Origin: Vermamoeba vermiformis
Taxonomy: Eukaryota
DNA: 64,000 nt
Direction of reading: 5' to 3'
NCBI GenBank assembly: GCA_045837725.1
Contig: JBEWZL010000239.1
Location: forward strand, 620,001-684,000
Shown: positions 1-62,600 of the stretch, in pieces
Position numbering within the stretch: position 1 is the stretch's first letter
Layout: each line of letters starts with the position of its first letter
Notes under the pieces: generated by a model
What the model was told of the DNA's origin: nothing
Database searches by the model: none
What the model saw: only the letters and a program-made list of their open reading frames with translations
Program-made: the position numbers and the translations under genes

Positions 1-1089
1 CAATCAGGGCATTCCAGTTGATGTGAGTGTGTCCGAACACGTGACTGACAGATTTGATGCTCTAAAAATAACTCCTAGTTGGGTCGTACTCACCGAAAAT
101 AAAGGCGTCAGTTACGTACGCGGATCTGCTCATCTAATTTTAGCGAGCCAACAACTTTAGGCAAGTACGGAATAAACAGCCTCTCACGTGCTAGCCAGAT
201 TGTGAGTGGTGGCAATGTGACAGCTGGCTACTTACGCGGCAGACACTCTGGTCGCGGCAAGAAGTGCGAGAATGAAATGACAGGTGCGTCGTAACTGCGA
301 TTGACACGTGTCAAATTGAGGTTCAGAAAGTATTGCTCGGGTGTATTCAGCACAGAATCATCGCCCTGGTTGAGGTGTTCTGGCAGCCATTTGCTGCATC
401 TAAAATTAGATAGATTGACAGCTGGTGGCACATTACCAAAAGCGGTAATCATTCCAGCCTGCGAGAATTCGTTTCTCTTCGTCCTGCGCGAGGGGCACGG
501 CATCGAATGAGCGGTGGTACCTGCAGTGTCACAGTGTTATATATATAGCGCTGCCTATACTCCTGCGCGTACCACGAGAACAGCGGCACGATCCAGATCG
601 GATGTGCAGTGCCAATCTTGGTCGGTTCAGTGAGTACACCGTGCTTGCGACAGAGGAGCAGGATCTTGTTGAACTTGTCTACGGAGTGCTGTATTGAGGG
701 GTCGTTGCGATCGTCCGTCAGCCACAGATCGTGATTGCCTAATTAGTATCGTCAGTCTCAACTCAGGACTGGCTTGACTGACCTGGCACATAGAAGACGT
801 AGTGAAATTTGGAGGTGAGAGCGACGAAGAACTCTTCCAATAGCGCTAGTCGGTGCGTCACTGCGTCATAATAGTAAATTAAAGACTAATTAGTCTGCAA
901 CTTTTCTGAATTAATGCGCGGTGCATTGAACCACTCATAATGCAACACTAGTGGTGCCGTACCATCACCTGCTACGATCAGTGCATCGTGGATGTATTCT
1001 GTGTTCGATAGATTGCGCACCCACTCCATGTTCGGTGCGTAGTCGATGTGCACATCTGAAGTGCAAAACACGCGCAAGGAGGGCTGCAT
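1..1089 (-). CDS. Calcineurin-like metallophosphoesterase, multi-exon; 3' end runs off the window
   Basis: Spliced translation gives all five metallophosphoesterase motifs in order: SDVH, VAGD, PGNHD, SHFLP, FGHTH. GT-AG introns restore the frame. Confidence 0.85.
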
Positions 1090-1287
1090 GATGTGAGTAG
1101 CGATACTACTGCTACTGAGGGTATGTACTTGGTGCTCGGTGACCACTCGTGTCTCGTGTGTTTGTATCGATCAAAATAAAGCGAGTTTACAACGTCAGCA
1201 TTTATTTTTGTATACAACCGACCACGTGACTGCAGTCATTGATCACGTGACTGATATACCAGTTCCCACAACAGAAATCACGTGCCT

Positions 1288-2425
1288 CTACACGCCCAGT
1301 GCCTCCACGACCCCCTCGCCCGTGGTGCTGTCGTACAAGAAAGTGTTGCGCAGTGGCTCGTCGACACGTGTCAGCAGTTTGATGGCCTCCTGTGCCACCA
1401 CGCCACCAATCACCGCGCACACCGGAGACAGCTCCGCGCGGGCATTGACTGCCACATTTCTGCAAAGATTAGTCGTACAGTTCACTGAAAAAACACGTGA
1501 CTCACTTGAGATAACTGTCGCTGACCAGGGCTGTGTCAGCACCGCGTGACGTCAGCAAGCTATTTTTAGTCTCCACCAGGGCCTGCATCTCGTCCTCACT
1601 CCGCGGCAGTGGATGCGCATCCAAGTAGTGCAGCAGCGCTGTTGACAGGTGTCAATCAGTGACTCAGAGCGAGTGCACGACACGTACCTTGTGTGGCTAT
1701 AAATAGCTTGTGTGTCTGACGGTCCACTTTGCACTGCGACACGTGCTCGTAGCTCGGGAACACGATCTCGCGCTGCTCTTCAATTTCCTTATCGGGCAAT
1801 TTCCTAATTAGGGGCAAGTGAGTCACGTGTCCCACAACAGCCGTGGTGGCGTACCGTTTGTACTGGTGCGTGAGTAGATCTGAGAATGCATAGCCGTATC
1901 GACCCAACACTTGCGCGACAATGAGCGGTACTTGCGCTGCGCGCGTGCGTGCATTCAACGCTTGGATGTGCGCGTGGCTGAGTCCGATCGCGATGATGAG
2001 GTCGTACTGCTTGACAGTGCTCGCAGTATGGTGCAGCACGGACTCACTCGCAGCGTGTATGTTGACGAGGGGATTCATCGCCTTCAAGCGCTCGATAAAG
2101 GCCTGCACGCGCTGCTGGGTGTTGAGCATCGGATGTGGGGTACAAGTGCAGTACTTACATTAGTGCCTATTTTGTTGGGGCCTATCAGACAGTTGGCAGT
2201 CAAATCAGCGGCACTCACAGGTACATCTGCCTGTCGATCGTCGAGGTAGAGTGCGGCGATACCTGCGAGCACGAGGTCCTTGGTGAGTTCAGCTGCGAGG
2301 CCGTTCAGTGAACCACACACGAGCACGTGACTGGCACTCAATTTCTTCTGCGCTGCCACGCCCCACACGCGCAGCTGGCGATCGTAGAGGCGTGGATCTA
2401 GCGGTGCTGCTTCTTGTGTTGTCAT
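1288..2425 (-). CDS. SAE1: SUMO-activating enzyme subunit 1 (E1, ThiF family)
   Basis: LYDRQLRVWG, GLAAELTKDLVLAGI, LKAMNPLV and C-terminal ELSPVCAVIGGVVAQEAIK...NTFLYD. Length matches Aos1/SAE1. Confidence 0.85.
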
Positions 2426-2624
2426 CGTAGAGTGCAGCTATAGTCGATATATATATCGGTGCCTAATGATGACCTCTCGCGTGGTAGTGTAGTGCGCAGG
2501 GCGGTGAAATTGAAAAAAAAACAATTTCTTATTATTATTATTGACACTTTGTACGACACAACGCCACATGCACTGCTGAACCACACTAGTAGTAGTAGTA
2601 GCAACAACTATCAATCGGCAGCAA

Positions 2625-5600
2625 ATGAGTCTCAAAGATGTGCAAGCAGCGCTAGGTACACCGCAGTTGTGGGTGACGGTGCAGCAGGTGGTGGATGGGG
2701 CTGCAGAGTGGCACGACGAAGAGCTCTGCACACTGCTCGAACAGCTCTGCGACACGCCTAGTAATGTGGCGCCCAATGCACTCGACACGCACAACAGCAA
2801 CATTGTCGTGCGACAGCTGATCGGAAAATTAGTGCATCGGTCAAAGCCTGGCAATCCTTCGCGACCCGTGCAGTGCTTGCAACACATGCTCAACAAGGTG
2901 TTGAATAATAAGAAAGCATCGCTCTCTGCCAAGCTGTACGTAATCCAAGAGCTTGAATATCAGATGGAATATTTCAATTTTAATTATTATTATTACAATA
3001 CCCAATATATATTAATGCATTAATGTTGCGCAATAATTCCTGATCTCCATGCCACTGCACCTCTAACCTCACCCCCTTGCAGCACGGCCCTGCTCGTGAT
3101 CGGAGCGCTGTACACGTACCGCACCATGCAGCTCGTCACACAGCTCGCCAACACTCTCGCTGTCTTCAACAAACTGCTCGCCGTGCGCGACAAGGACGAT
3201 GAACTGCCGCGCGAGGAGGTCTATCTCAACGAGGCTGCGGTCACTGCCAACAACGGCGTCAATCACGTGCTCATGTTGCGCACCCTCGACTATCAGCCTG
3301 CTCGCAATGAACTGCGCGCCATAAAAGGTAAGTGGCACCCTGTCTATTAATAGGCATGTTGTCTATATACGGTCATGCTGGACTAACAGCTGGCTCAGTG
3401 TACTGCGTGCGACAAGTGCACGTGATCTGTTTGGCCCTGGTCGATTACAACGGACTCGCCAGTCACGTGCCTGAAATTTCAAAATTGATCCGCTCCGTGC
3501 TCAAAGATCGCAGTGCGGAAGTGCGTCACGTGGTCTACGATCTATTTTTAGCACTGGTCCGACAGTTCAAGCCCGTGCTGTCCACCGCGCAGAGCCCTGC
3601 AGCTAATAATAGCAACAGTCCCGCAGCCAATCCCTCGACAGCAGTGGGTGTGGACTGGATGCTCGCAAATCTCGTGCACGATCTCCTCAACTGTCACGTG
3701 CATCACGGTCAGTTCTTGGCGGCCATTCACGCGCACTATCATTTGACACGTGTCAAAACCAGTGTTGCAACGCGCACTGAAACCACTGAGGCGAGCGCGG
3801 AGCAGTTGCCCAAATTAGGCAAAGCCAGTCCAGTCGCAGCATATCTGGCACGTGCTGGTGCATCAAGTGCCACCACGTTCATGAATCAATACGATCTCGT
3901 CACAATCTCGCACCATTATCTCCGATTGTGGGCTCAAATCTCGCAGACACCTGTCAAACTCGCAGTGACATATGTCAAAGATGTCAAAGCAGCGATCACG
4001 TGCTCATTGATGGCATTTTTAGACGCACTGCCCGTGCACGTGATTCAAGCCAATCTGTCGCACCTCGTGGAGGTGATTTTGACCCTGATCGATGATCTCC
4101 GCGACAATCTCCCGTACGTGATCACGTGCTTGCGACGCAGCATCGCACGACGCATGGACAGCACTGGCCGCGATGCATACTTGCAATATTTGATCACGCT
4201 GCTGAACACACTGCTGTCCAAATCAGGCGAGGAGAATTCGTCCGTCCAGCACAAATTGAGCGCGATTGTGCTGCTGAAAGAATTGACCGAGTGTTTGCAG
4301 CACGAGAGCGAAGGATTGGAAATGTCACGTGATCAGTTAGTCACGTGCTTGGAGACGGCGCTCGGTCGTGCGCAGCTAAATTTAGATGACGATCTCCAGC
4401 GCGAGATTGCAGTGTGGTCGAGCACGGTGTACAAGGCGATGGTGCGCTGCGTGCCGAGTCAGATCGCGCCACATCTGCAAACACTCGTCCAGGGCCTGCT
4501 TGCCACCATCGGAACTGGCTCCGAACTCGATCACGTGACCCTCAATCGCGCGCGTGTTCAAGCGCACTTTGTGGTGGCATCACTGGCAGCACTGCGCAGT
4601 CCAGCGAGTCACGTGACGGCGATGAAAGCTGGTGGCACGGGTGTGACCTCCGACACGCTGCACAAATATCTCGGAATATCTCCGGCCCTGGTCGATCAAC
4701 TCTACGCCCTGGTCGACAAGCTGTTCAATCTCAAACTCGATCTCGTGGCCTGGATGCTGTTGGCGGCACTGATTCGCACGGGAGTCACTGGCGTGGAGAA
4801 TCACGTGACTTATTTGGTGCAACAGTGGACTCAGTGGCAACAGGTATCACCATATTTGTACATACCTATTTTTAGACCGCAACTAATGCACTTTCATGAA
4901 CAGCGCGGCGCCACTCCTCAGAGTGACTCAGCCCTGGTCGAATATCTGCAAAAGAGTGCCATCGTACTGCAGTCCGTGCTGTCATATTTGCAGCACGTGG
5001 TGACACCTGACACCAGCGAGCAACTGTTCACCACGGAGATCTACCACGTGATCACGCGCTTGTTGAACACGTGCCTGCATCACGTGCTGACACCAGTGCC
5101 CGAGACTGTCACGCCACCCCGCGCAGAACTGCAAAGATTGCGACTAACGCTGCTGCGCGGCTATGCCATGCTGTACGGCCTCGACGTGCCATCCTATGCG
5201 GGACACTGGCCCACTGCGGAACAACTCTCGTTCTATCAGCAGTGCCACGCCTATCACGTGCTCAACACTCCCGCATCGGAGGTGCCACCAGTGGCGGAAT
5301 TACCGCAAGTGGCACTGCTGCCAGCCCCGCACTTGATGCAAGCCGTGATGAGTGTGCTGTGCGACACACTGCAATCTGAGCACGATCTCGCGGTGTCGAG
5401 TGCGCTGTGGCAGCACGTGATACCAGCCGAAGATCACGTGCTCCTGGCCATTGATCCGCCCAAGGCACACCCTGCCCACGCACTGCCTGCCCTGCAACAG
5501 CTCAAGAACTATCACCGCCACCACGACGAGGTGACAGGTGCCACCACGATATACTCATTCGTGCGCGAGTATGTAGCCCTGGCCGACGACCCTGCCTCGC

Positions 5601-8600
5601 TGTGGGATCTGCATCTCTCCGCGCTCAGTGAATCGCGTGCCGTGACGACGAGTGACGTGCCCCACACGCGCAGCAGTCAGCAGTGGAGCAGCAGCGTGGC
5701 CGTGGCGAGTGTGGATGTGGCTGCGACGCTGTTCCCCGTGCTGCTGTTCAGTCACCACGACAGCAATCAGAACAAGATCCTCGATCAGTTCACGGCCTAT
5801 GTGCACGCTGCGGATCAAGCGCTCAAGCCGCACGCGCAGCTCAATCTGCTCACGACACTGCTGCTCACTGCCAAGTACCTCAGCGAACAGCACAAGTTCC
5901 TGGCCCTGGTGAGTGGCAAGGACGGTGTCAGTCACGTGCTCGGTGTGGTCAGCAAGCTCGCAGCCCTGGTCGAGCAGTACATTGCCAGTGTAGATCCGCT
6001 GTTGCGTCGCATCAGTGCGCAGGTGCTGGCCCTCACTGCGCCGCTGTTGGGCGATGCATTTGCCGCGCAGTTGGTGCAAAAGCTGTTCAACACGGTGCAA
6101 GCGCGCAGTGCCGCGAGTGAAGTGCTGTCGAACGAACACGAGTACTACCAGTACGAGTACCAGAACAGCAAGGAGGACGAGGAGGTGCTGAGCGGCTGTC
6201 TACTCACCCTCGCACTGCTGCTCAAACAGATCGGCGGCATCAAGAGCACCGCGCACATGGTACGCACCGCACAACAGGCCCTGGCACGCTTGCTATCCTC
6301 GCTCAAGACACGCGTGCTGTCCAGTCCCAGTCAGTCGCACGTCAAGTGGTTCACGCCGCGTCACTTGCACTGCACACTGCTCACCGTGCTCGAGATCAGC
6401 TGTGAACTCGCACTCACGCAGGGCCCACAGTTCTCGCTGCAACTGCTCACCACCACTGCACAGCTGCTCGTCAAGGAGCACTATGACCCGTACTGGCACG
6501 ATTTGCCACCCTTCGATCTGCATCGCGCAGGTGCTAAAAATAGCCCCGCAGCAGAGAGTGTACCGCGCACACCGAGCACGCAAGTCAGTTACATGACGAC
6601 ACGTGGCGTGAATGGTGCCACCATGTGCATTGCGCGGCTGTTGGGATCGATCGTGCAGAGTCTCGGACCTGAACTCCGACTCGAATCGCAGCCTGCCAGC
6701 GTCACTTCGCACACGCAGCGCATTCTGGCGATCCAACAGTGTTTGACACGTGTCAACCAGGGCGTGTTGACGCAGCACGAACTGCACTTGTTGCAGCAGA
6801 AGATCTTGCTGTTCAGTCCGCAGCTCATCACGCACAATCTCGCCAAGACACTGCGCCACTTGCTCGATGAGCGGCACTTGCTGTCGCACTGTCCAAATCT
6901 CCGCGCGAGCTCCATCAGCACGTGCCGATCAGTCACGCAGTTCTTGATCAACAAAGCGGAACAACAGCCCCCCACGGACTCGTTGCAGTTCTTGATGGAC
7001 TTTGTGACCTTCTTTTTCACGCCCAATCCTGCCACGTCACTGCACCGCTTGGACGACATCTTGGTGATGGCACGTGACGCATTTATCCATATTTGTACAT
7101 TCCACTAACTTCCTTTGCAGCTCGACAAAGAGAGCAGTCAACACATCCGCGCGGAGATCAAGCAGCTGATCACATTGGTGCTCGACTTTACGCGCTACGA
7201 GTCACCGATCACGTGGCTCAAATTGTTGCAACGTCACGTGACTGGCACCATCACCGCCCAGCCCGCAGCCCCGACCTCACCGAGCACACGTGCGGTGGCA
7301 GTGGAGGACGAGGAAGAAGGCCAAATGACAGGTGGTGACACGCAGCTGTCAAACAGTGACCCGGACAGCACGCGATATTTGCACTGGACGACAAAGAGAT
7401 TTGCAGTCAAGTGTCTCGTGCGACTGATGACGTCACTGATCGACCAGGGCTGGCACTACGATCTCCTCAAGCCCGCGCCGTCCACTGAGCGCGGCACTCG
7501 TCTGGTGGAGCACGTGGAGGAGATTGTGAGCACGTGCTACTTGCCTGCCACGTCATCGATCGATCCGCTGCGTCACGTGGGACTGGTGGCCATTGGCGTG
7601 CTGTTGCAACGATTCGGTGCGAGTCGCGAAGTGACAGGCGATGACTTTTACGACATGTCACGTGCTGACACGAGTCACGTGCCCAAATATCTGCTGGCAC
7701 AACAGGCCATGCAGCTGGTGTCACCACTGCGTCAGGGTCTGACAGCACGCAATTCACTCTTGGTGGCACTCTCCCTGCCCATCACGTGCAATTTCTTAAT
7801 TTGGGCAATGACTACGCGCTCCATGACAGAGACTGAAATCAAAAAATATTTTGCTATTTTTAGCTCAGCAGTCACTAGCGCACTGGACAAGAGCACTGAC
7901 CGCGGCTACGGTCACGTGATTGAAGACCAAAAAAGGCTAACTGCTTTGATGACCAGTGCGCAGCTCTATGTCGCTGCTGCCGATCTGCCAAACTTTGCAA
8001 CTATTTTCAGCAACTTTCACAAACAACTTTACTCGGCCTGGCACGTGGCACTGCAGACCTGCGCGCAGACCCTGAGCGAACAATTCACTGAACCAGCGCT
8101 GGGAGAACTGCCCTGGTCGATGGATGACCGCACGTGGTATCTATTATTAGAAGCATGTGCCACCAGCGCACGTGATCAATCGCTCAGCACCGATGTGCAG
8201 CTATATTTAGAACTGGCACTCTACGCGATCAATTCGCTGCTGGGCACCAAGCACGTGACTGGCGCTTCAGTGAAAAGTTGTCTGCGCACACTGGTGGCAC
8301 TCTATCAATCGAGTCACGTGACTGATGAGCTCAAGGTGAGTGTTTGCATCAATTTACTCTGTTCACTGAACTAACGCCGCCACAGAAGTCGAGCAGTCAC
8401 GTGATCAAGACCATTCAAGCAGTCATTGCAGTTGTGCAGCAGGCTAATAATAGCGCTGAAATCAACGCCATTTGCACCGAGCTGCTCAACGCGCTTGTTT
8501 CCAAATTAGGAAAAGAGTTCTTCGAGAACGAAGACAAGTCGCTGACTGACACTTTGTGGCAGATGATGATTGACTTGCTGACACGTGTCAAGATCACTGA

Positions 8601-9471
8601 CAGCACCAATTATGGCAATATCAGTGCTGTGCTCAACTGTGTGCAGCAGTGTCTAAAAATAGCACCGTGTTCACTGAAGCACGCCGTGGAGTTGAACGCA
8701 CAATTGTTGCAAATGCTGTCAAATGTCAATCTCAACCAGACAGTAATTCCGCTAGCCGCCAAGACGTTGGTGGCACTGCTGTCATCCACGCGACAGTACG
8801 ATGAGCTGAGTGTGCTGACAGTGAACTCACTGCTCACGTTCATGAACGAGTCACTCACCAACACCCCCGCATTCAAAGAGCTATTTTTAGTGCTCATCTA
8901 CACCACGACACTGCTGCCCATCGAGCACATGACCGTACATCGCAGCGTGCTCGAATTGTTGCAAAGACTGCTCCGCAATCCAGTGCCCCTGACCGAGCAC
9001 GTGCTCGAGACAGTGCGACAGCAGTACGTGCAGTCCTGGCTCGAGACAGGTGCGGGCAGTGCAGTGAGTCAGTTCTACGTGCAAGGCCTCACTGCTGACG
9101 TCATCACCGTGCTGCAACAGAGTGCCAAGTCCCTCGCAGCCACACGCATCAGCGCACTCAAGTACGTCATTCTCTTGCAGTCCGTGGCACCGCAGCCTGC
9201 ACAGAGTCTCGCGCTCACCTTGCCCACACTCGTCTCTACCCTCAAGAGCACAGACCGTGCACTCGCAGACACTGCGCTGCAAGTGCTGCTACGTCTCGCG
9301 CAAAGCATGGCCAATGAGTTCCGCGCGCAAGTGCAACAGCTTCCCGTGGAGTGGCGCACGTGCTTTGAAGAGGCAGTGCGTGCTCATCTCAGCAAACAAC
9401 AACAAGCTGCGCAGAAGACAACGACGACCAGCATGGCACTCGATATGTCCAAGTACAACGACGACAAATAG
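2625..9471 (+). CDS. HEATR5: HEAT repeat-containing protein 5 (Laa1/SWEETIE-like AP-1 accessory factor)
   Basis: ORFs at 2625, 3096, 3332, 7115 and 8344 join through short introns into a ~2100-aa helical protein. Recognised blocks: LKDRSAEVR, MLDKE, WTTKRFAVKCL, QLVSPLRQGL. Confidence 0.7.
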
Positions 9472-11990: not shown

Positions 11991-12249
11991 CGCCTAGCTC
12001 ATCGGTGGTGTTGCGCACAAATTAAATTCTGAGAATAAAATGACAAAAAAACAGCTGCTTTGTGCTATTGCTTTCGTAAATCGTGCATGTACATGCCATA
12101 TATTAATAATGTTATATTTATGTTTTGTACAACGCTCAGCACATTCACAACTCATACATTACACATCGTACTTGCCGGTGTGCGGAACAATCAATAGTAA
12201 AAATGGCATTATTAAGCAGGCCTCTCATTGCAATCCATAATTAAGCGCA

Positions 12250-13218: not shown

Positions 13219-13462
13219 ATTCCAAGATTAATGAGATTGATAGCCTAATATATAATACTATGATACAATACAAAATAATACCAATCCTGGTTGTTTGTAG
13301 GTTGGTTTGTAACTGACTGCGATTTTTCGGTTTGACAGATAGCACGATACACTGAGGGCCAATACTACGGATAAGCGCACAAGGTATTGTCACTGAGGCA
13401 TATGGAGCAATATCATACACTTTATATTACAATTTGAGACACGAGGCAAAGGTTCCACGAAC

Positions 13463-14150: not shown

Positions 14151-14320
14151 TGTGCTTAACGTATTGACAAGTGACCAAATTAATACGCGCACAAAGTGGA
14201 TCGTGTTTTATCAATTTTATTGTTGGACAAAATGAAATTGAGTGCGAAATTGAACTCGATTTACTTACTTCTACTCTCTAAGACACCAATATATTTCAAA
14301 ACCGAAAGACAAGTAACCAC

Positions 14321-32868: not shown

Positions 32869-32910
32869 TTAGTGATGGGTTAAATGTACATAATAATTGT
32901 AAATAGCTCT

Positions 32911-49330: not shown

Positions 49331-49380
49331 ACTTCGCGCCTTTTTTTATTTCTCTTTTATTTTAAACAACAAGTACACAA

Positions 49381-53351: not shown

Positions 53352-56052
53352 TTAGACAGTCCAAGGTGATTGGCTGCTCGAATTTGGATCCGAGTCAGCA
53401 GGCAGCAATGAGATTAATTTGCTGCGCAGAGTTTTGAGTCGTTCGAGGATCTGATCAAAGTCCGGGCGATCAGCTGGATTGCGCGCACAACAGTCGCGAA
53501 TGAGCTGTGCGTATTCAGCGGGGATATTGGGAGGCATTTCGGGCAATTGACCCTAGCGCAGTGATTAGAACAGTGTGACACGTGTCAATCAACGAGCTCG
53601 AGACTTACCTGATCAATGTACCGCAGCACAGTGATGGCATCGAGACCCTCGTACGGGGCACGGTGACTGATCAACTCCCACAGCACAATGCCGAAGGAAT
53701 AGACGTCGCTCTTCTCGGTGTATTCTGACGACTCGTTCACGACTTCAGGACCTTGCCACGTCAAAGTGCCTTTGTACTTGCGACGCGAACCACCGCTGTT
53801 GGGCTCAGCGTCCTCAGCAGGCGTGTCTTCAATGATCTTGCTCAAGCCAAAGTCCGCGACTTTAATGTGATAGTTCTCGTCCACGAGCAAGTTGAGACTC
53901 TTCAAATCGCCGTGCAAGATCTTGTGCGCGTGCAAGTACTGCATGCCGCGTGCAATTTCAATGGCAATGCCAGTCTTCTTGGGCCAGCCGAGCACAGACT
54001 CCTTCTTGAGCAACTCAAACAAGTTGCCACCGGGAATGTACTCGGTCACGTAGCACACTGCCGGGCCATCTAGACACGCGCCTAAAAACAGCACGACATT
54101 GGGATGACGGAGCTTGCTGGTGATGATGGAAGGTCAGTTCAGCTCAAGCAAAGCACGCAATCAGTGCACGTACCTGACCAAAGTGATTTCTTGCAAAAAT
54201 GCCTCGAAGCTTTCAGCCGACAGGGCACTCTTGAGCATCTTGACCGCGACTTCAATGCCGCGCCACGTGCCCAAGTACACGTCAGAGAACGAGCCTTCAC
54301 CGATCTTCGCGGTCAATTTCATCTCGTTGTAGGCAATCTCCCATTGGAAGGGACTGGCCTTGCGCTTGATCGAGAGCGGCATGTCAAGCACCTCGCGCTG
54401 CGCGTGATGATGGACGGGCACGTGCGGCTGAGGCTGCAAGACTTGAATGGCACGTTGCAACAAGTCACGGATTGACGTCTCGGTGACAGGTGTCACTTCG
54501 AGGGGCGTGCCAGTGGTGCCGTGGACATTGGGATTGGCTCCTGCCTCGAGCAACACCTTCACAATGTCGATGTAGCCCATGCGCGCTGCCCAATGCAGTG
54601 GTGTTTCACCTGGTTCATGAACGACTGTCAGTTTCACTGAAAGCAGTGCGGTGACATCTGTAAAAGATCTCGTGGACTTTAAGACTCGCTGCTGGCCTCT
54701 ACTTAATTCTTGTGACGAATTTTCAGCTGAAATTTGAGATTGTAAACTGACCAGGAAAAATAACAGCAATGATTTCAAGAATGACGTTGCGAATTGGTCA
54801 AAAACAAGCAGCGAATATTCGTGCGATGAATTTCAAGCAGCTTGATCGTATTGGTGGAATTTAATATGATTTAAAGCGCGTACCGTGATCATTCAAGCTG
54901 TTAATGTTGGCGCGATTGTCGATCAGTGTTCGGACAATAGCAACATGGCCCTATTTAGGAAATTCATGAGAATAAAGATCTAATTGATTCGTGTTCTAAG
55001 TACTATTCTAAATTTCGCTCAAGAAAAGTTTTTTTCAGGTTCACATCCGGACTCACCTTCCAACAAGCGTTATGTAACGGAGTCTCGCCATTGAGATTTT
55101 GAGCGTCAATAAGTGCACCTTTCTATAAGAGTATTAGATATGCAATGTATAATAAAGTATTGACTGGTGATGAGGGCAATTAATAAAAAACTAGATCTAC
55201 AAAATCTTTTTAACTTTAGTTAGGGCAATTTGGCGTGGATAAAGCCGAACTTGATTTAACAATAGGAACATGACTTATTAAACGATTTAATATGCGCAGT
55301 AACGTCGTGCAATTTTAACAGGATTTTTGTAGAAATCTCGAATTATTTTTGATTATAATATTTGCTGCGGAGCCAGTTCGGATCTGTTTTCGAAAGACAC
55401 GCAGCGTAAAATCTTTTTGATTCTTAAAATCTTAGCATATTCTCAATAACATACCAGCAACAGTTGTTCAATTGTGTCTTTGTAATTGTCAGGAAAGTTT
55501 CTTGCATAATAATGTAACGCTGTATTTCCTTCTCTGTTGCCTTTTTCCGCGACTAAATAATCATATTAATATTGGCATATAATAGAGACATGTAAAAGTA
55601 ATCTTGAATAACAAATTAGGAAAATAAAATAAAAACCGATAATAATTTAAAAAATAATTACCAGCAATATTAGGCTGCGACAGGAGCATATAGAACATGT
55701 CCTTATTTTTGCTAAGCGCAGCAAAATGTAAAACAGTCCATTTGCTCGTAGATTCGATGGCATTAATGTCAGCTCCTGCGTCAATTAGCAACTGCGCGAT
55801 CTTGAGGTTGCCCAACTGTGCCGCAGAATGCAATGGGTATCTTCCGACGTGATTAGGGGTATTGACGAGTGCTTTCTTCTTCTTAAGCAAAGCTGCCACG
55901 AGATCTTCGTCGCCCATCTCGGTTGCTTGGGCAAGCAGCTTGACTTTGTCTTTTCTCTTCATACTAAACGAGTTCTTCCTAGAAATTATTTTGTATGACT
56001 TGTCATTTGTATTGTTGTTCTTATTATCAAAGTATAAACTGGCTGTCTCCAT
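53352..56052 (-). CDS. Ankyrin-repeat tyrosine-kinase-like (TKL) protein kinase
   Basis: Ankyrin repeats (YPLHSAA, TALHY, TPLHNAC, TPLHWAA), then IGEGSFSDVY, VAVK, HGDLKSLN, DFG, GTLTWQGPE, DVYSFG. Confidence 0.92.
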
Positions 56053-56331: not shown

Positions 56332-59300
56332 TTACTTCACATTGCAAACTTTCTTGTGGTTGATCCAATCCGCTTTCTGACAGACGACAGAGCAGTAGTG
56401 GATCTGCTTGCATCGCCCGCACAACGACAAGGGCACGCCAAATATTCCACATGTAGCGCAGAATTTCTTGGGCAGTCCAGGAGGGTGCACTATAATATTC
56501 CAATATACCGTTAGTGATCATTCGTCATCTTGCAATCTCACTGAAGTATACCATCGAACGAGTGCACTTCACCCGCTGGTGCTTTGCTCGGCTGCACGGG
56601 TTGCTGACTCGCGCGGGGACTAGATCGTGCGGGCTCAACGGGAGTGTCGTCAGGCAGTTCAATAATGCTCGACGGCACGCGGGGAGGCAAAGGGACTTTC
56701 GGGGCCTCGTCCATTTCCATTTGGAGATTGCACACGACAATCACTTTGGGGTCTGCAGAGGCCAAGAGCAGCTGATTCGTAGCCTGGCCGTCAGGGGCTG
56801 TTACTTGCGTCAGTTTGATGGCAATAGGGATCTCGCTGTGTTTGGTGTGAACGAAAATAACATTGCCAGTGACGAGATTGAGCACTTTGATTTGTTTCTT
56901 GGCCATAGAGCACGCTAAGTAGTCGCCGCACAGACTTAACACCACGCCCCAGCCTAAAGTATGAATTGTGAGTTGCGTGACTGGGCCGTGAAAATCTCTT
57001 CATGACACGCGTGTCAATTCTTACCATGCGTATCTTCGATGAAATTATGCAACAGGCGCTTCGTTTGATATGACCAAACCATGACGTGCTTCTCCTGTGT
57101 GCATGCAACGACGTAATTGTCGTTCATTTGACAGTCGAAGATCCACGTCCGCTTCACTTCTTCAGGCATTTCATACGCGTACAACAGCTCACCAGTCTCG
57201 AGCGAATGTTCTAACACGCACTTGGACGCAGAAATAATCGATTTCTTGTCCGGTGAAATGTACGCTTTGACCACGTGCGAGTAATGGCCGAACATCATGC
57301 GCTCTTGTTCATTGGTCTTTCTGTTCCACACGCGCACGACATTTTCACGCATGCAGCCAGTCACAGCGTAGTTGTCGTCAAACTAGTGTCGAGATTAGCA
57401 TGTGTGATGGACAGCAGGTGTTGAACTTACATCGACACAATAGACCGGACACGGGCTGCCAATGAAAGTGTTCTTGTTGGCTTTGGTCTGCACGTTGTCT
57501 ATTCGTATTTTAAAGTCCGTATGTGATGCATACGCGAGTTCTTTAGTATTCTCGTGATAACTGACTGCTGTTGGATGATCCACTTGGTAATGAATTCGTT
57601 CTCGATTGCCCAGCTGTCACTCGCGTTAGTATGACACGTGTCATTCGTTCAATTGACCTTACCGAGTTCGAAAAGTTCAAAAAACTAATTGTCTTGTGCC
57701 CTGAGCGCCATACAAAGTTATTTTTGGTGAATTCGCGTGGATGTCTCATCGGACCATCGGCCTCGGGTTCATGACACGTGTAACTCGTGGCTTGTAACTT
57801 CAACAGCTTCAAATTCTTACTGTAGTCCACATACCAGTTAGTAATTGAATAGTCTTAATTGTTCAGTGAACGTACGCTGAAGGACGATATTGAGGTGAGT
57901 CCTTGAATTCAAAGCGATGTACATCTGCTTGCAATAATTAGCTCGTTGTTCAGAACGGTAATTAACCTCCATACCCTTGGCTAGTTTCTTAATATAAGCC
58001 TTTAACTTCTCGTAGTCTTCAGCGTAATTGCCAGTCTCGAGCCCAAAATAGACACTCGGTGCCATTTTCAACATTTCATACGCCAAGCTGTATTTTTTCT
58101 GAATAACACAAGATGAATCATAAAATATCATTATTGTATAGTAAAGTAACGTACGATGGCCGCATAAGCTTTGACCATTTTGAAGTACTCGGGCGGATCA
58201 ATCAAATGATGCCAGTCATCCCAACTAATGGCCTCGTGATATTTCGCAATCGACAAGTCATATTTCTCCTCTTCAAATGACAACTTGGCAATGTCAGCTG
58301 ATTCTTTAGCGTAAGACTTGCGCGTCTTTTCGGTCTTTTTTCTGCACACGGCCACAGGGTCGTGACAGTGTTCGCAGATCGGAATTAATGGATCGTCTTT
58401 TGGCAGGTCCGCCCCCATTTTTAGTAATATCTCGCTGTAATCACCCATGTGGCCTTATTCACTGAATTAGCATTTCATGAACGGACAATCATGCTCGTAC
58501 CTTCATCGACACAATCGTGATAGAATGCCTCGCGAATGAGCGGCACTGCTTTGGTGTATTTGAACTTGGCCAGGGCCGCGACGAGTGCTGCATTGAAATG
58601 TGGTTTCTAAGAATAGAAGGCAAGGTGATTAATACATGCTGCTAGTGTTCAATTATGGTCGTCGTACTTGTTCAGTGTAGTTCATCAAACACTGCATGAA
58701 AAATTCACAAATTTGAGTTTTGTGCTCGTCTTCCACTTGTTCTGCGAGATTTTCTAGCGCCTCTGAAGCGAAATCTCGATTGGGCGCCTTTTGATTCTAT
58801 AAATGGTCATTAATATCATATGTGTATATACACACCACTATAGTCACGTACTGCAATGTATTCTTCGAGTGGTCTAATTGCGGCTGCTTTGAATTTTGGC
58901 AGCAATCTGACTAATTCATCGGGAGTCGCGTAATCGTCTTCTTTGCACGCAAATAACGGCACTAAAATGCGCGCGTCATCTTCAGTGAATCCTTCGTCGA
59001 CTGTATCGAGGGCCTGTTCATGGTAGAATTATTAGTGGCGTGTATGAATGAGATCTGCGTTTGTCGTACGCTAAGGGCTGAATATCGAGCAGCAGGATTG
59101 AGTTGCATCAATGATAAGTCACGTGCCATCGCTACGAGTGCTGGAATATGTTCTTTTGTAAAACCTAAGCGCTTGCATTCCTCGGGCGATAACTTGAGAA
59201 ATTTGAATTAATATAACGTCAAAATTACGAAAAATATTTTCTAAAAATAATAGGCGAGATAATGGTGATAAATAAACGGTTTGAGTAAAAAAATAAGAAA

Positions 59301-59483
59301 GAATATTCGGATCGATTATTTTTAGCTTTTGATTATTGGTTGACTTACGTCTTCTGGCACTTTTATTAAAAATGATAATGGTGGGTTTGCATATTGACGC
59401 ATAGTCTCTGGAGGAAACGTTGTGAAAGGGCGGATTTGCGCGCCTTCTTTCTTTTTCGCAGCCTTATTGGCTTTTCTTCTCAT
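56332..59483 (-). CDS. Multidomain protein: DUF1186-like helical domain, TPR-like segment, WD40 repeats, C-terminal MYND zinc finger
   Basis: LGFTKEHIPALVAMARD...AAIRPLEEYIA...FNAALVAAL...AVPLIREAF..DCVDE...GDYSEI. WD-like VRVWN/FGH/VMVWS repeats. Last exon CATC...LCGRCKQIHYCSVVCQKADWINHKKVC. Confidence 0.75.
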
Positions 59484-59633
59484 ATCTCCGTTATTCCTCT
59501 ATTTTTGTAATGTTTTTTCGAAAGATTTGTTGTTAGTTATCCTTAAAAAATATGTGTAATGAAAAAACGGTCTTTAGAGTTAATTTTGGATCCACAAAGC
59601 TTCCTCAAAGAGAATTCATTGCTTTATTACTTA

Positions 59634-62600
59634 TTACAACTCATCAGCAATGGTTAATTCTTCTCCAAATTTGAATTCGCTTTGATATTTTGACGCTTGC
59701 TGCGAAGACTTCATTTTCTTGTGCCAGCGCACATTTTCAATCAAAAGCACGAGACCAGGCAACAATAGCACACCGATGAATATGATAAATACCATCAAGT
59801 ACTCGAAGTCTGAGGCCGACACTTGGCCAGACACACTTACACCGCAGTTGTTTGGATCTGATCGCACGCCATTCGCGTCAATAACCTGCGAACAATTAAG
59901 TCAATACCAGTCGTATATAAATGGAGTATATACGTACGGTGACCACGTATTCAAATGCCGAGCCAGACTGCGCAAGAGTGTTCTGCATGGTGACATTGGT
60001 GTAGTTGACAGTCGCGAGCACGAGGCCGTTCGAACTGATCTCGTACTGACACGGGCAACAGCAGTCAGCAGGGTACAGACACGCAGTCCAGTTCAGCTTG
60101 GTGCCGATAGATGTGCCGAGCTCTGAGATCACATCGTAGTACTGCAAGTTCCACACGGGCTTGGGCACGGGACACGGCACATTGATGCTAAACTTGGACG
60201 AGCCTGCGTGTGCGGGCTCTGCATTATCGCCGACTGACACCTGTGACACGTGTCAATCACAGAACAGTTCAATATATGTGAATTAGAGTACTACGCACCG
60301 TGAAGTCGTAAGTACCAGGCGCAGCGTTCTCAGCCAAATAGACGTAGACATCTGCTGCTGCAACTTCCCCTGGCATCAACGAGGCCACGCCTGATGTGAA
60401 GCCCCGCGAGCCAAAGTGCGCTACGACGCCTTGATTGACGAATGGCAGGGCATTGGGCCGCAGTGAGACCCACATGGAGCTGTTGCCGCACGTCTTTTGA
60501 TCGAGATTGGTCAAGTTCAACGAGCCAATCACGAACTCTTGCTCGGCACCAACACTGAACACTGGCGCGTAGTCTGTTTGATTCACAATCACAAATGGCG
60601 GGAGAATGTTGCACGTGGAATTGACGATCAAGCGTAGATCAATTGAAGCCTAGCAGCCTTGTTAGTACGTCGTATTAATGCACAATTAGGCCACGTACTG
60701 CATACGACAAGGTAGACACAGGATCAGTAGCGTTGATGTACACGGTGAAGTTAAACTCGCCGTCGTATTTGACAGGCAGAGCCACTGAAAATGAGCCGCG
60801 ATAAACTTTGCCGCGCTCAAAATTAGAACTCGACGGGTCAGCACTGATGGGAATGCCCAACGACTTCATGTAGTCTTTTTGTGTTTGATCCAATGACACG
60901 CGGAACGTACTCTGCAAACACTATTAGTCACCACAGACAAGTATTGGACAGCACTTACCTTGTCGCAGTACTCGTTGTCAGTGCTGCGGACTTCAAAAGT
61001 AAACACCGCTGTGCTACCGGAAAAAGCATGCAATTCACTCGAACTCGTCAGTGTGACATTGGGCGTACCTCTGATGCATCGACCAATCAATATTGAACTC
61101 GAGGCATAACCGACTCGATTTCGAGCTGTGTCAGTGAGTGCAAATCTGCGACGGTGTTAGCGATGATAATGACAGACACTAGTGCTTACGTGAGTTGGAT
61201 GGGCACGGGGTCCGTGAGTGAACTGTTCAAACTCTGAAATCCGTCCGCCAATGTGATATTGACGTGTTCCCAAGTGTTGTTCGTGGCCGCGAGCAAATAT
61301 TGTTGTTTGCTCCAGCGCGGCACAATGTTCTGTATAATTATTTCAGTTAAAATCTAAGCCATGGTAATGCATCTTGATCGGTGACTCACCAATGACGTGT
61401 TGACGCTGCTGAAATCTACCGAGAGCACCGAGTCATCGCAGGGCCACGAGTCAGTGTTCTTGGACCAGAACTCGCATTTGAAGCCAGACTGATCAGAGCC
61501 GCGTGCAGGGGCATAGAGCTTTGGATTTTCAATGTTCACGAGCTTGGGACAGTTGACGTAAATGAACGGCGTGTTTCTCTCGCACGTCGTGGGTGATAGT
61601 GCAATCTTATTTTGATAGGTTAGAAATGATTCTTAATCGCTACAAGCTTACATTAATATTCTGTGATGATTGGGACCCATTGTCGTTAAAATTGACCGCA
61701 ATGCTCTTAGACTGTGAAGGCACATCCGGTGCTGTAGGACCGGACACGAGCAGCACTGATGTCGTTCTGAACACATGTTAGCTCAAATGATAGGCTAATT
61801 AATCGAACTTACTTGGTCCCTGCTTCTACGCGCAAACTGTCAGCCAAAACCAACGATTCAATTGGCAATTCTGAGAATTGGTTAAAATACTTTGCACAGA
61901 TAGAACTCAAGGTGTTACTTACCAGACACTTCAGTGGCCGTCAAATCAAAGTCGAGATCAGTGCAGCTGTGCGTGTTGTCAACGGTGACGAGTGTGAAGT
62001 AACTTATGATAACTTAGTATTAATATAATTATGTAGCTCGACTTACCCTTCACGTGCTGCCATTTTGAAGTTGACATCTTGCACATTGATCGAGGGCTTC
62101 CAGTCATCGAGACATTTGGGTCTAAATGTCACAAGCACTTGTTGCGTGGTTTCGAGTAGCACTGCGTCATTGGTGGTGGCATTCATCGCTAAGACCAGTG
62201 TGACATTAGTGCCGAGCAGTGACTCGTCGTCAGGCACGGTCAGTTCGAGCTGAATAGCGCGCGTGCTCTGTGATTGAAGTGTCACGAGAGCTGTGCCAGT
62301 GACATTTCCAGCGAGTTGTTCTTTGCTGTCGATCCACTGATACGGCCAGGCAGGGGACAATACGCGCACGTCAAACTGCTGCTCTTCACACGAGAATGAA
62401 TGCCCATTCTCCAGTGTGATGTCGATGGTAAGCTGCAAGCATTAGTTTGATGCTTAATAAGAAGGGTATGGCTTACCTTTCCACCGATCCTGGCCAGTGC
62501 CGTGCTGTTCGTTATTATTGCCGGCGGGTTCTTTTGACACGTGTCAGGAAAGACAACGCCAAGTGTCAACATCGAATTGTGTGAAGTGGAGTTGTAGCTG

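What the first reader, a model, noticed from the sequence alone, without database searches (positions are those of the whole stretch)
302..62546. Highly iterated 12-bp palindrome TGACACGTGTCA, concentrated in short introns
Seen: at least 19 exact copies in 64 kb, where chance expectation for a given 12-mer is about 0.004. Fourteen lie in short introns of nine unrelated genes and five in coding sequence. Some extend to 14-16 bp (TTTGACACGTGTCAAA at 3742). Near-variants also recur: TGACAGGTGTCA/TGACACCTGTCA at ~1644, 18020, 25524, 26284, 37188, 54484, and TGACACATGTCA at ~33440. Flanks are unrelated, so this is not a transposon family. Established: cyanobacterial HIP1 is a genome-wide iterated palindrome linked to methylation. 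Inference: a eukaryotic analogue maintained by a DNA-binding or chromatin protein, or by a biased methylation/repair process.
Basis: partly seen in the sequence, partly recalled or inferred. Interest (0 to 1): 0.8.

Follow-up and report, generated by a model that had tools for sequence, protein, structure and literature searches.

The report
Iterated 12-base palindrome in tiny introns
A protist genome stretch repeats one exact 12-letter palindrome, mostly inside its very short introns and often where the splicing branch site should be, which looks like a eukaryotic counterpart of the unexplained iterated palindromes of bacteria.

Summary
TGACACGTGTCA occurs 19 times in 64 kb. Shuffles expect 0.03, and Markov orders 0-5 expect 0.004-0.54. 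Flanks are unrelated.

My own gene model gives 14 copies in introns, 5 in exons and 0 in unassigned DNA. Homologue alignments confirm 5 of the intronic copies.

The unit is two inverted half-sites, TGACA-NN-TGTCA, with a spacer of exactly 2 bp: 29 copies, against 0-3 for other layouts. The two half-sites vary independently. This points to recognition of double-stranded DNA by a dimer.

The core CACGTG is the window's commonest hexamer, with 118 copies. Coding sequence holds 87, against 37±4 in synonymous shuffles. It has symmetric flanks and raises His-Val dipeptides.

Splicing also shapes where the 12-mer sits:
- 9 of 19 intronic copies end 3-8 nt before the 3' splice site.
- Only 1 of those 9 has another branch-site word.
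- Upstream flanks follow the direction of transcription.

Best reading (0.4): a DNA-level palindromic word kept within transcription units, reaching full length only in introns, where its YTGAC is used as the branch site. The reader protein and the function are unknown. Genome-wide spread could not be tested, because no genome is held.

The parts
302..313 (.). exact copy; class uncertain. It is an exon of the minus-strand model 228-1089, read as LTRVN, or an intron of a plus-strand gene cut by the window edge
   Evidence: plus-strand alternative; no Pfam family on the ORF
3744..3755 (.). exact copy in the coding exon of the HEATR5/Laa1-like gene (+), read as LTRVK
   Evidence: no consensus donor within about 95 nt upstream
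6744..6755 (.). exact copy in the coding exon of the HEATR5/Laa1-like gene (+), read as LTRVN
8579..8590 (.). exact copy in the coding exon of the HEATR5/Laa1-like gene (+), read as LTRVK
10552..10563 (.). exact copy in intron 10521-10573 (- gene), 10 nt after the 5' splice site; a separate CTGAC branch word lies downstream
10910..10921 (.). exact copy in intron 10902-10957 (- gene); ends 8 nt before the 3' splice site; no other strong branch word
18170..18181 (.). exact copy in intron 18162-18214 (- gene); ends 8 nt before the 3' splice site
26247..26258 (.). exact copy in intron 26240-26304 (- gene, uridine-kinase-like); ends 7 nt before the 3' splice site; preceded by C, giving CTGAC
29157..29168 (.). 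exact copy in intron 29138-29190 of the coatomer-gamma gene (+), in the spacer part; CTGAC branch word downstream
   Evidence: intron confirmed by a frame change against homologues
29509..29520 (.). exact copy in intron 29475-29528 of the coatomer-gamma gene (+); ends 8 nt before the 3' splice site
   Evidence: an 18-residue gap with stop codons against three homologues
30766..30777 (.). exact copy in intron 30756-30805 of the coatomer-gamma gene (+), 10 nt after the 5' splice site
   Evidence: stops and frame changes against homologues
33963..33974 (.). exact copy in intron 33948-33998 (- gene); ends 15 nt before the 3' splice site
36860..36871 (.). exact copy in intron 36823-36876 of the acyl-CoA-oxidase gene (+); ends 5 nt before the 3' splice site
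   Evidence: an 18-residue gap with stops against homologues
37069..37080 (.). exact copy in intron 37054-37105 of the acyl-CoA-oxidase gene (+), in the spacer part; CTAAC downstream
   Evidence: frame change against homologues
39816..39827 (.). exact copy in intron 39810-39859 (- gene, UBR/PRT6-like); ends 6 nt before the 3' splice site
53576..53587 (.). exact copy in intron 53553-53608 (- gene, ankyrin-kinase), in the spacer part; CTAAT downstream
57632..57643 (.). exact copy in intron 57614-57662 (- gene), in the spacer part; CTAAC downstream
60244..60255 (.). exact copy in intron 60241-60298 (- gene); ends 3 nt before the 3' splice site
62535..62546 (.). exact copy in an exon of the minus-strand gene model 59634-63999, read as DTCQ
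1643..1654 (.). centre variant (TGACA-GG-TGTCA on +) in intron 1639-1687 (- gene); ends 4 nt before the 3' splice site
3966..3977 (.). centre variant TGACA-TA-TGTCA in the HEATR5-like exon
18020..18031 (.). centre variant in intron 17980-18036 (- gene), 5 nt after the 5' splice site
18345..18356 (.). centre variant (GG/CC) in an exon of the minus-strand gene 17477-18846
25524..25535 (.). centre variant (CC) in an exon of the MORC-like gene (+)
26284..26295 (.). centre variant in the same intron as copy 26247, 9 nt after the 5' splice site
33440..33451 (.). centre variant (CA/TG) in intron 33435-33492 (- gene); ends 5 nt before the 3' splice site
37188..37199 (.). centre variant (GG) in intron 37169-37225 of the acyl-CoA-oxidase gene
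   Evidence: a 19-residue gap with stops against homologues
39420..39431 (.). centre variant (TG/CA) in an exon of the UBR-like gene (-)
54484..54495 (.). centre variant (GG/CC) in an exon of the ankyrin-kinase gene (-)
57003..57016 (.). 14-nt palindromic variant TGACAC-GC-GTGTCA in intron 56981-57024 (- gene)
3264..9362 (+). densest run of the core CACGTG: 44 copies in the 6,483-nt coding sequence of the HEATR5/Laa1-like gene, in all three frames

Best explanation
TGACACGTGTCA is the full-length form of a strand-symmetric DNA word that this genome keeps inside its transcription units. It is built of two inverted half-sites, TGACA[C>G], set exactly 2 bp apart. That is the geometry read by a dimeric sequence-specific DNA-binding protein.

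Coding sequence can rarely hold the whole 12-mer. One frame gives a TGA stop, and the others force LTRV or DTC. Exons therefore carry mainly the 6-10-bp core RK-CACGTG-MY, while the full word accumulates in the roughly 50-nt introns.

Inside such a tight intron the word is tolerated in only two places. It can sit in the spacer between the 5' splice site and a normal branch site. Or it can sit 3-8 nt from the 3' splice site, where its own YTGAC (a match to the branch consensus YTRAY) serves as the branch site.

Shown: the excess, the architecture, the restriction to predicted genes, the intron enrichment, the positional bimodality, and the loss of other branch words.

Inferred: that a protein reads the DNA, that selection rather than biased repair maintains it, and that the A of TGAC is the branch point.
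For: Architecture:
- TGACA-NN-TGTCA occurs 29 times with a spacer of 2, against 0-3 for every other spacer or orientation.
- There are no versions with variable loops.
- Position 6 of the 58 half-sites is C 47, G 7, T 4. The C/C, C/G and G/G dimers number 19/7/0, against 19.0/5.7/0.4 expected if the half-sites vary independently.
- The outer triplets are coupled. Of 118 CACGTG sites, 19 have both TGA and TCA, 2 only the left, 4 only the right, and 93 neither (Fisher P = 4e-16).
- A solved complex shows two TALE homeodomains on ATTGACAGCTGTCAAT, the same layout with another centre (PMC6158717, passages read).

DNA-level symmetry of the core:
- CACGTG is the top hexamer, 118 copies against 24-55 expected by Markov orders 1-3.
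- Coding sequence holds 87, against 37.0±4.1 (maximum 48) in 300 synonymous shuffles, in frames 45/26/16.
- The flanks mirror each other when oriented by gene: -2 R 66/82 and +2 Y 67/82; -1 T/G 65/82 and +1 A/C 60/82.
- His-Val occurs 27 times against 7.3 expected in the HEATR5-like protein.

Selection rather than copying:
- Flanks are unrelated.
- Introns with the word are no longer than others, median 53.5 against 52 nt.
- Only 5 one-off variants fall in the 10 outer positions, against 19 exact copies.

Splicing constraint:
- 3' distances are bimodal: 3-8 nt for 9 copies, at least 15 nt for 10 copies, and none at 9-14.
- The cluster at 3-8 nt has permutation P = 0.002.
- Only 1 of those 9 introns has an independent strong branch word, against 81 of 106 short introns without the word (P = 1.7e-4) and 8 of 10 for the other copies.
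- The implied branch A lies 12-17 nt from the intron end, within the range 6-35 (mostly 10-15) seen for ordinary introns.
- Y stands at -1 in 9 of 9 of these copies.
Against: - No copy lies in the 15.3 kb of unassigned, mostly intergenic DNA, although its G+C (0.38) matches that of introns (0.40). An ordinary transcription-factor site would be expected in promoters.
- In gene orientation the flanks of the 19 intronic copies are asymmetric. Upstream: C at -7 in 14/19 (P = 8e-7), T at -4 in 12, G at -3 in 11, A at -2 in 11, T at -1 in 13. The mirrored downstream letters occur in only 4-8 of 19. Branch-site use explains A at -2 and T at -1. It does not explain C at -7 or TG at -4/-3.
- The base next to CACGTG differs between exons (T or G in 65 of 82; A in only 12 of 82) and the 12-mer (A). 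So the exon core and the intron word may be two separate phenomena.
- No reader protein, binding data or modification data exist.
- All evidence comes from a single 64-kb window of an unidentified organism.
- The branch point is inferred, not mapped.
- The gene model is my own. Only 6 of the motif-bearing introns are confirmed by homology, and RNA depth was about 1.
Confidence: 0.4

Rival explanations
1. A purely RNA-level splicing element. The word would be an extended branch-site/3'-splice-site module, or an intronic enhancer or silencer, read in the pre-mRNA. Its self-complementarity would serve a small hairpin, or pairing between copies in neighbouring introns.
For: - All 19 copies lie in predicted transcription units, 14 of them in introns.
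- Position is biased towards the 3' end, and other branch words are lost there.
- The upstream flank follows transcription direction. GATTGAC fits the local branch consensus TACTAAC at the -4 to +1 positions.
- TGACAC would extend pairing with the conserved GUG next to the GUAGUA box of U2 snRNA. The U2 sequence is recalled, not tested.
- Trichomonas introns carry a fixed 12-nt fused branch/3' motif, ACTAACACAYAG (PMC13548475, Table 2 passage read).
- Copies cluster in adjacent introns of the same genes, in 6 adjacent pairs. My hand estimate of the chance expectation is about 2, uncorrected for gene G+C.
Against: - 10 of 19 intronic copies are not at branch distance, and 8 of those 10 have their own branch word.
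- 5 exact copies and 5 centre variants lie in exons.
- The hairpin is weak, -2.1 kcal/mol. In context its pair probabilities range from 0.00 to 0.99.
- There are no variable-loop or compensatory versions.
- Single-stranded RNA readers do not need a palindrome.
- Ordinary introns show no extended branch consensus beyond TACTAAC.
- Only 18 of 142 introns carry the word.
Confidence: 0.27
2. A by-product of a biased mutation, repair or gene-conversion process, as proposed for HIP1. The process would create and restore CACGTG-centred palindromes in transcribed, G+C-richer DNA, with no reader and no function for the word itself.
For: - The core is over-represented everywhere, including unassigned DNA: 7 copies, against about 2 expected from base composition by my hand calculation from the compositions.
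- It overrides protein sequence.
- Introns with the word are G+C-richer, 0.466 against 0.399, P = 0.001. The A+T-richer genes at 41-52 kb have none.
- Elhai's model for HIP1 is a methyl-dependent mismatch repair (abstract read).
Against: - CpG observed/expected is about 1, so there is no sign of deamination pressure.
- The one-step neighbours CATGTG and CACATG are only mildly low in coding sequence, 11 against 16.9 expected.
- A repair bias does not explain a 12-bp word with coupled outer triplets.
- It does not explain the absence of the word from unassigned DNA of intron-like composition, or its placement relative to splice sites.
Confidence: 0.15
3. Traces of a very small mobile or intron-generating element (introner- or MITE-like). 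The palindrome would be the joined or minimal terminal repeats.
For: - Intron concentration.
- A shared 16-mer, TGATTGACACGTGTCA, occurs exactly in four introns (10902-10957, 29475-29528, 36823-36876, 60241-60298). Intron 53553-53608 has it from GAT onwards, and intron 1639-1687 has it with a variant centre.
- Very few decayed copies.
Against: - No similarity beyond 18 nt between any two copies.
- Carrier introns are not longer.
- No target-site duplications were noticed on reading the flanks. I made no formal test.
- The exonic copies show no upstream donor sites.
- The intron-position comparison with other eukaryotes was uninformative for the motif-bearing introns.
Confidence: 0.08
4. An assembly or library artefact, such as adaptor or chimera junctions.
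For: Palindromes can arise at artefactual junctions. The DNA runs that hold the window completely may be its own source.
Against: - The copies sit in introns whose lengths restore reading frames exactly against homologues.
- Four exonic copies lie in long open frames.
- Variants and flank preferences are biologically structured.
Confidence: 0.02

Closest known systems
HIP1 (GCGATCGC) and alternate highly iterated palindromes of cyanobacteria (Elhai 2015, PMC4390886; abstract read)
   Same: - An exact short palindrome, orders of magnitude above expectation, that is not a mobile element.
- The CACGTG core occurs in coding DNA in all frames, at about one per 540 bp of the window. It is strong enough to shift dipeptide use.
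   Different: - This is a eukaryote.
- The 12-mer is concentrated in spliceosomal introns and absent from unassigned DNA.
- Deviations cluster at the centre, not at the ends.
- No cognate methyltransferase is known, and there is no CpG signal.
- The word is tied to splice-site geometry.
Palindromic TALE-homeodomain dimer site ATTGACAGCTGTCAAT (TGIF1 homeodomain complex, PMC6158717; passages read)
   Same: - Two inverted TGACA half-sites separated by exactly 2 bp.
- An A/T flank outside the half-site.
- Half-sites that behave independently.
   Different: - The centre is CG (19), GG/CC (7) or another pair (3), and never GC (0 of 29).
- The sites are intragenic, not in promoters or enhancers.
- No TALE protein of this organism has been examined.
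E-box / G-box CACGTG sites of bHLH and bZIP dimers. GACACGTGTC turns up in plant promoter-motif papers (search listing only). The yeast CDEI/Cbf1 consensus RTCACRTG is recalled.
   Same: - A CACGTG core.
- The exon form, RT/G-CACGTG-A/CY, resembles Cbf1/USF-type sites.
   Different: - The outer triplets of the 12-mer are coupled all-or-none, not graded.
- CAGGTG/CACCTG centres are tolerated, which a single bHLH class would not normally accept (recalled).
- The distribution is in gene bodies.
Fixed 12-nt branch-site/3'-splice-site motif ACTAACACAYAG of Trichomonas introns (PMC13548475, Table 2 passage read)
   Same: - A fixed 12-nt word at the 3' end of short introns.
- It contains the branch site followed by CAC and lies a few nt from AG.
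   Different: - That motif is strand-specific, not palindromic, and present in essentially all introns of its type.
- Here only 18 of 142 introns carry the word, half of the copies are not at the 3' end, and exons carry it too.
Introner / MITE-type intron-generating elements (recalled)
   Same: A repeated sequence found in many introns of unrelated genes.
   Different: - No extended similarity between copies.
- No increase in intron length.
- No terminal repeats beyond the 12-mer itself.

Membership tests
Highly iterated palindrome (HIP1-type) | An exact palindrome far above Markov expectation across the genome | tested here: inconclusive
   Met within the 64-kb window: 19 copies against 0.004-0.54 for orders 0-5. 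The genome-wide part cannot be tested because no genome is held.
Highly iterated palindrome (HIP1-type) | Present in coding and non-coding DNA regardless of reading frame | tested here: inconclusive
   Met for the core CACGTG: frames 45/26/16, 87 in coding sequence. Not met for the 12-mer: 14 intron, 5 exon, 0 unassigned; exon copies in two frames only.
Highly iterated palindrome (HIP1-type) | One-letter deviations biased to the first and last letters (Elhai 2015 abstract) | tested here: not met
   10 of the 15 one-letter deviants found (14, plus TGACATATGTCA) change the two central letters.
Highly iterated palindrome (HIP1-type) | A cognate (orphan) DNA methyltransferase for the word or its core | not testable with these tools
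   No genome or modification data. CpG observed/expected of about 1.0 gives no hint.
Dimeric TALE-homeodomain site | Inverted TGACA half-sites with a 2-bp spacer | tested here: met
   29 sites with a spacer of 2, against 0-3 for other spacers and orientations.
Dimeric TALE-homeodomain site | Central GC (TGACAG half-sites) | tested here: not met
   GC centre in 0 of 29. Position 6 of the half-sites is C 47, G 7, T 4 of 58.
Dimeric TALE-homeodomain site | Bound by a TALE homeodomain protein of the organism | not testable with these tools
   No proteome or binding data.
bHLH/bZIP E-box or G-box | A CACGTG core with additive, graded flank preferences | tested here: not met
   The core is present in 19 of 29 sites. 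The flanks are all-or-none: 19 both, 2 plus 4 single, 93 neither.
Introner / MITE | Copies share extended sequence beyond the core | tested here: not met
   Longest shared exact stretch is 18 nt; flank identity is 0.29.
Introner / MITE | Carrier introns are longer by the length of the element | tested here: not met
   Median 53.5 against 52 nt.
Branch-site / 3'-splice-site module | A YTRAY match placed at branch distance from the 3' splice site, with no other branch word | tested here: inconclusive
   Met for 9 of 19 intronic copies: A at 12-17 nt, Y at -1 in 9 of 9, only 1 of 9 with another strong word. Not met for the other 10. The branch point itself is not mapped.
Structured RNA hairpin | A stable stem with compensatory or loop variation | tested here: not met
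   -2.1 kcal/mol; context pair probabilities 0.00-0.99; no variable-loop versions; no Rfam match in the window.

The most novel reading that the evidence does not exclude
This protist runs a gene-body tagging system. A dimeric reader of TGACAS half-sites, and of the shorter CACGTG core in exons, marks the organism's own transcription units at the DNA level. Possible uses are chromatin state, elongation control, or telling self from foreign DNA such as viruses. Selection for the tag would be strong enough to rewrite protein sequence and to replace the canonical branch site in about 6% of introns. The spliceosome would then have been forced to use a DNA signal as its branch site. This would be the first HIP-like system in a eukaryote and the first one coupled to splicing.
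Probability: 0.15. Interest if true: 0.9.

Novelty: new variant of a known kind. Interest (0 to 1): 0.72.

Why it matters
Highly iterated palindromes have been known in cyanobacteria for decades and remain unexplained.

I found no report of the 12-mer as a genomic motif. The full-text search for it returned 2 unrelated virology papers (listing only). The 10-mer core returned 23 papers, which by their titles are primer or plant promoter-motif uses (listing only). A search combining CACGTG, introns and palindromes found nothing of this kind (listing only).

A eukaryotic case would add handles that bacteria lack: introns, nucleosomes, and a direction of transcription that is easy to read. These let DNA-level and RNA-level readings be separated by experiment.

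It would also show that a sequence word unrelated to splicing can take over the branch-site role in minimal introns. That bears on how tiny introns evolve and on how much of an intron is free sequence.

If the word proves to be only a local or splicing-specific oddity, the finding reduces to an unusual branch-site variant.

Tried and rejected
- Whole genome: none is held, so there is no genome-wide census.
- RNA evidence: three RNA runs of the same species label, laid on 20001-40000, proved to come from a strain 95-99% identical. They cover only 20-22.7 kb deeply. Depth over the motif-bearing genes was 0-3, and no joint in those introns was among the 15 joints listed (155 were not shown). The only lay call is spent.
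- Close relatives: a coatomer-based scan of metagenome contigs gave 80 loci of at most 55% identity, none with the 12-mer. Orthologous-intron gain and loss could therefore not be studied.
- Intron age: I compared intron positions with 21 longer loci. One motif-free intron (position 130) is shared widely. The three motif-bearing coatomer introns were not informative, because most of the loci are intron-poor.
- Organism: two protein searches gave no same-species protein. The best named relatives of the oxidase are Balamuthia (44%) and a Mayorella transcript, a weak hint of Amoebozoa.
- Structured RNA: no Rfam family and no tRNA in the window. The hairpin is weak and inconsistent.
- U2 pairing: I considered extended pairing of the upstream flank with U2 snRNA (sequence recalled). 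I rejected it as a general rule because ordinary introns show no conservation beyond TACTAAC.
- Hidden introns: the idea that the exonic copies lie in unrecognised introns or before cryptic 3' splice sites fails. There are no consensus donors upstream, and an AG within 8 nt is expected in 56% of cases when AA follows.
- Partner half-sites: upstream half-sites in the same intron, which might bridge the intron ends, number 3 in about 800 nt. That is not above background.
- Viral contigs: a scan for the 14-mer found a bacteriophage group using the same word before its genes. No link to this eukaryote was shown, and I do not count it as evidence.
- Earlier notes of this scan: none on this genome or sequence.
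- Pfam on the frames around copies 302, 62535, 10552 and 10910: 0 families in 4 of 4.

Full report
**Observation.** The 12-mer TGACACGTGTCA occurs 19 times in the 64-kb window, at exactly the coordinates given. 100 dinucleotide-preserving shuffles gave a mean of 0.03 and never more than 1. Within one mismatch there are 33 sites against 0.32 expected.

The excess does not come from low-order composition. Markov models of orders 0 to 5 trained on the window expect 0.004 to 0.54 copies. With the copies masked from training, the expectation is at most 0.044.

The copies are not pieces of a longer repeat. The longest exact stretch shared by any pair, 12-mer included, is 18 nt. Mean identity over 80 nt of flank is 0.29. 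Tandem Repeats Finder reports only four unrelated arrays. The third, confinement to this region, could not be tested because no genome is held.

**What kind of DNA this is.** The window is eukaryotic. 7 of 16 long frames hit Pfam families: HEATR5/Laa1, MORC, coatomer gamma, acyl-CoA oxidase, UBR/PRT6 and an ankyrin-kinase. No same-species protein appeared in two large protein searches. The best coatomer hit is 52% identical. The best named oxidase relatives are Balamuthia (44%) and a Mayorella transcript, a weak hint of Amoebozoa.

No gene finder was available, so I built one. I trained splice-site matrices on 52 introns that are required to join open frames. A dynamic-programming model then gave 20 genes and 142 introns of median 54 nt. 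The donors are GTAAGT, GTACGT or GTGAGT, the branch word is TACTAAC-like, and the acceptor is YAG. It assigns 39,132 bases to exons, 9,572 to introns and 15,296 to neither.

**Where the copies lie.** By this model, 14 copies are in introns of 10 genes, 5 are in exons and none is in unassigned DNA.
- 14 of 19 falling in the 15% of bases that are intronic has binomial P = 1.5e-8.
- 14 against 0 for introns versus unassigned DNA has P = 1.6e-6. The two classes have nearly the same G+C, 0.40 and 0.38.

Homology confirms five of the intronic copies and one variant. Three coatomer homologues show an 18-residue gap over stop-containing DNA at 29475-29528, a frame change at 29138-29190, and stops and frame changes around 30756-30805. 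Oxidase homologues show an 18-residue gap at 36823-36876, a frame change at 37054-37105, and a 19-residue gap at 37169-37225.

RNA reads could not help. The only runs with raw reads come from a strain 95-99% identical and cover these genes at a depth of 0-3.

Of the five exonic copies, four are read as LTRV(K/N) and one as DTCQ. The third frame would be a TGA stop. None has a consensus donor within about 95 nt upstream, so they are not hidden canonical introns. Copy 302 may instead lie in an intron of a plus-strand gene cut by the window edge.

**Anatomy of the word.** The unit is two inverted half-sites. TGACA-NN-TGTCA occurs 29 times with a spacer of exactly 2. Every other spacer from 0 to 8, and every other orientation, occurs 0-3 times. 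Versions with longer, variable loops are not enriched.

The centre is CG in 19 sites, GG/CC in 7, CA/TG in 2 and TA in 1. Read as half-sites, position 6 is C 47, G 7 and T 4 of 58. The C/C, C/G and G/G dimers number 19, 7 and 0, against 19.0, 5.7 and 0.4 expected if the two halves vary independently.

The outer triplets are coupled. Of 118 CACGTG sites, 19 carry both TGA and TCA, 6 carry one of them and 93 carry neither (P = 4e-16). So the 12-mer is a unit of its own and not the tail of a graded E-box series. Of the 15 one-letter deviants, 10 hit the two central letters. This is the opposite of the end-biased deviations reported for HIP1 (Elhai 2015, abstract).

**A second, related excess.** CACGTG is the commonest hexamer of the window, with 118 copies against 24-55 expected by Markov orders 1-3.
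- In the spliced coding sequences there are 87, against 37.0±4.1 (maximum 48) in 300 synonymous-codon shuffles. They fall in all three frames, 45/26/16.
- 44 of them lie in the 6.5-kb HEATR5-like coding sequence. There His-Val occurs 27 times against 7.3 expected. Over all models it is 58 against 29.3.
- Oriented by gene, the 82 exonic sites outside the 12-mer have mirror-image flanks. At -2, R occurs in 66; at +2, Y in 67. At -1, T or G occurs in 65; at +1, A or C in 60. Such symmetry is expected of a signal on double-stranded DNA, not of one read in mRNA.
- The base next to the core differs from that in the 12-mer: T/G in exons against A. So the two excesses may or may not share a cause.
- CpG observed/expected is about 1.0 in all three classes, so nothing points to methylation-driven decay.

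**The link to splicing.** Among the 19 intronic TGACANNTGTCA copies, the distance from the word to the intron end is bimodal. It is 3-8 nt in 9 copies and at least 15 nt in 10, with none at 9-14.
- Random placement reaches 9 copies in the 3-8 nt class with P = 0.002.
- In that class, only 1 of 9 introns has another strong branch word (CTAAC, CTAAT, TTAAC, CTGAC or TTAAT) at a usable distance. The figure is 81 of 106 for short introns without the palindrome (P = 1.7e-4) and 8 of 10 for the other palindrome copies.
- All nine have a pyrimidine before TGAC, giving the branch consensus YTRAY.
- The A of TGAC lies 12-17 nt from the intron end, within the range seen for ordinary introns (6-35, mostly 10-15).
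- Introns with the word are not longer than others, 53.5 against 52 nt.

The simplest reading is this. In a 50-nt intron the word fits either in the spacer before a normal branch site, or at the 3' end where it must itself supply the branch site.

In gene orientation the upstream flank is non-random: C at -7 in 14/19 (P = 8e-7), T at -4 in 12, G at -3 in 11, A at -2 in 11 and T at -1 in 13. The mirrored downstream letters occur in only 4-8 of 19. A at -2 and T at -1 fit the local branch consensus. C at -7 and TG at -4/-3 remain unexplained.

**Weighing the readings.**
- *RNA hairpin: poorly supported.* The hairpin is worth -2.1 kcal/mol, its pair probabilities in context range from 0.00 to 0.99, and it shows no loop or compensatory variation.
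- *Mobile element: poorly supported.* The flanks are unrelated and the carrier introns are not longer.
- *Pure transcription-factor site: does not fit.* The word is absent from unassigned DNA, and its positions run from 0.16 to 0.91 of gene length, never in a first or second intron.
- *DNA-level word: favoured.* The rigid two-half-site geometry, the independence of the halves and the strand-symmetric exon core favour recognition of double-stranded DNA by a dimer. The same geometry is seen in the solved TGIF1 homeodomain complex on ATTGACAGCTGTCAAT (PMC6158717, passages).

I therefore favour, at 0.4, a DNA-level word maintained within transcription units. It would be full-length only where coding does not forbid it, and it would be taken over as the branch site when it lies at the right distance.

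A purely RNA-level splicing element (0.27) is the main rival. The closest precedent for it is the fixed ACTAACACAYAG at the 3' end of Trichomonas introns (PMC13548475, Table 2 passage). Biased repair in the manner proposed for HIP1 (0.15), a mini mobile element (0.08) and an artefact (0.02) follow.

**Novelty.** Full-text searches found no description of this word as a genomic motif. The 12-mer returned two unrelated virology papers. The 10-mer core returned 23 papers, which by their titles are primer or plant promoter-motif uses. A search combining CACGTG, introns and palindromes returned nothing of the kind (listings only). Earlier notes of this scan describe iterated palindromes only in bacteria and phages, and none on this DNA.

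I file the finding as a new variant of a known kind, the highly iterated palindrome. Two things are new: the host is a eukaryote, and the word is coupled to intron architecture. The main limit is that everything rests on a single 64-kb window and on a gene model of my own. That model is confirmed by homology for six motif-bearing introns only.

Noticed in passing
L188 (IMGVR_UViG_3300047160_004968, 31.7 kb), L186, L156-L161, L140-L144, L093-L096, L120-L123, L150-L152, L105-L107, L163-L168: A group of IMG/VR contigs carries the same palindrome in a longer form, TTTGACACGTGTCAAA, about once per gene or gene block. One 31.7-kb contig has 18 copies of the 14-mer. The word usually lies 4-19 nt upstream of a start codon. 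ORFs of L188 hit tailed-phage tail and baseplate families (Baseplate_J, P2 GpU, Tail_P2_I, tape measure). These are bacteriophages with their own iterated palindrome, probably an operator or promoter word. No link to the window's eukaryote was shown.
   Followed up: partly
window 1-64000: CCGG is strongly depleted: observed/expected 0.13 in exons, 0.20 in introns and 0.43 in unassigned DNA. The CC/GG dinucleotide is at about 0.6, while CpG as a whole is at about 1.0. Several stop-containing palindromic hexamers (CCTAGG 0, TCTAGA 3, CTTAAG 3) are also rare.
   Followed up: no
window 3264-9362: The HEATR5/Laa1-like gene is an outlier. It has 44 CACGTG in 6.5 kb of coding sequence (6.8 per kb, against 0-4 per kb in the other 19 models) and only 5 introns, with one exon of 2.9 kb.
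   Followed up: partly
window 20001-22700: RNA reads of the same species label differ from the window at many fixed positions (95-99% identity). They cover only this stretch deeply, with a mean depth of about 50-780 per 667-nt bin (both read directions summed). It holds a ribosomal protein L13e-like gene on the minus strand and a plus-strand gene with two read-supported introns (20260-20452 and 20702-20786) that my model did not call.
   Followed up: no
window 31392-31609: My gene model fuses coatomer gamma, which ends near residue 880 by homology, with a downstream gene through a 218-nt 'intron'. That stretch is probably intergenic.
   Followed up: partly
window 18162-18214, 29475-29528, 33435-33492, 26240-26304: In four introns with the palindrome near the 3' end, a TTTGACAC half-site or a second variant palindrome lies 7-14 nt after the 5' splice site. 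In predicted folds of three of the four (29475, 33435, 26240) it pairs with the palindrome. The count is not above background.
   Followed up: partly
window 12001-16000, 19000-24000, 41000-52000: A+T-richer stretches (G+C 0.40-0.46) and the genes in them (for example 45999-49199 and 49381-51478, with 21 introns between them) have no copy of the 12-mer and almost no CACGTG. The words follow local G+C.
   Followed up: partly
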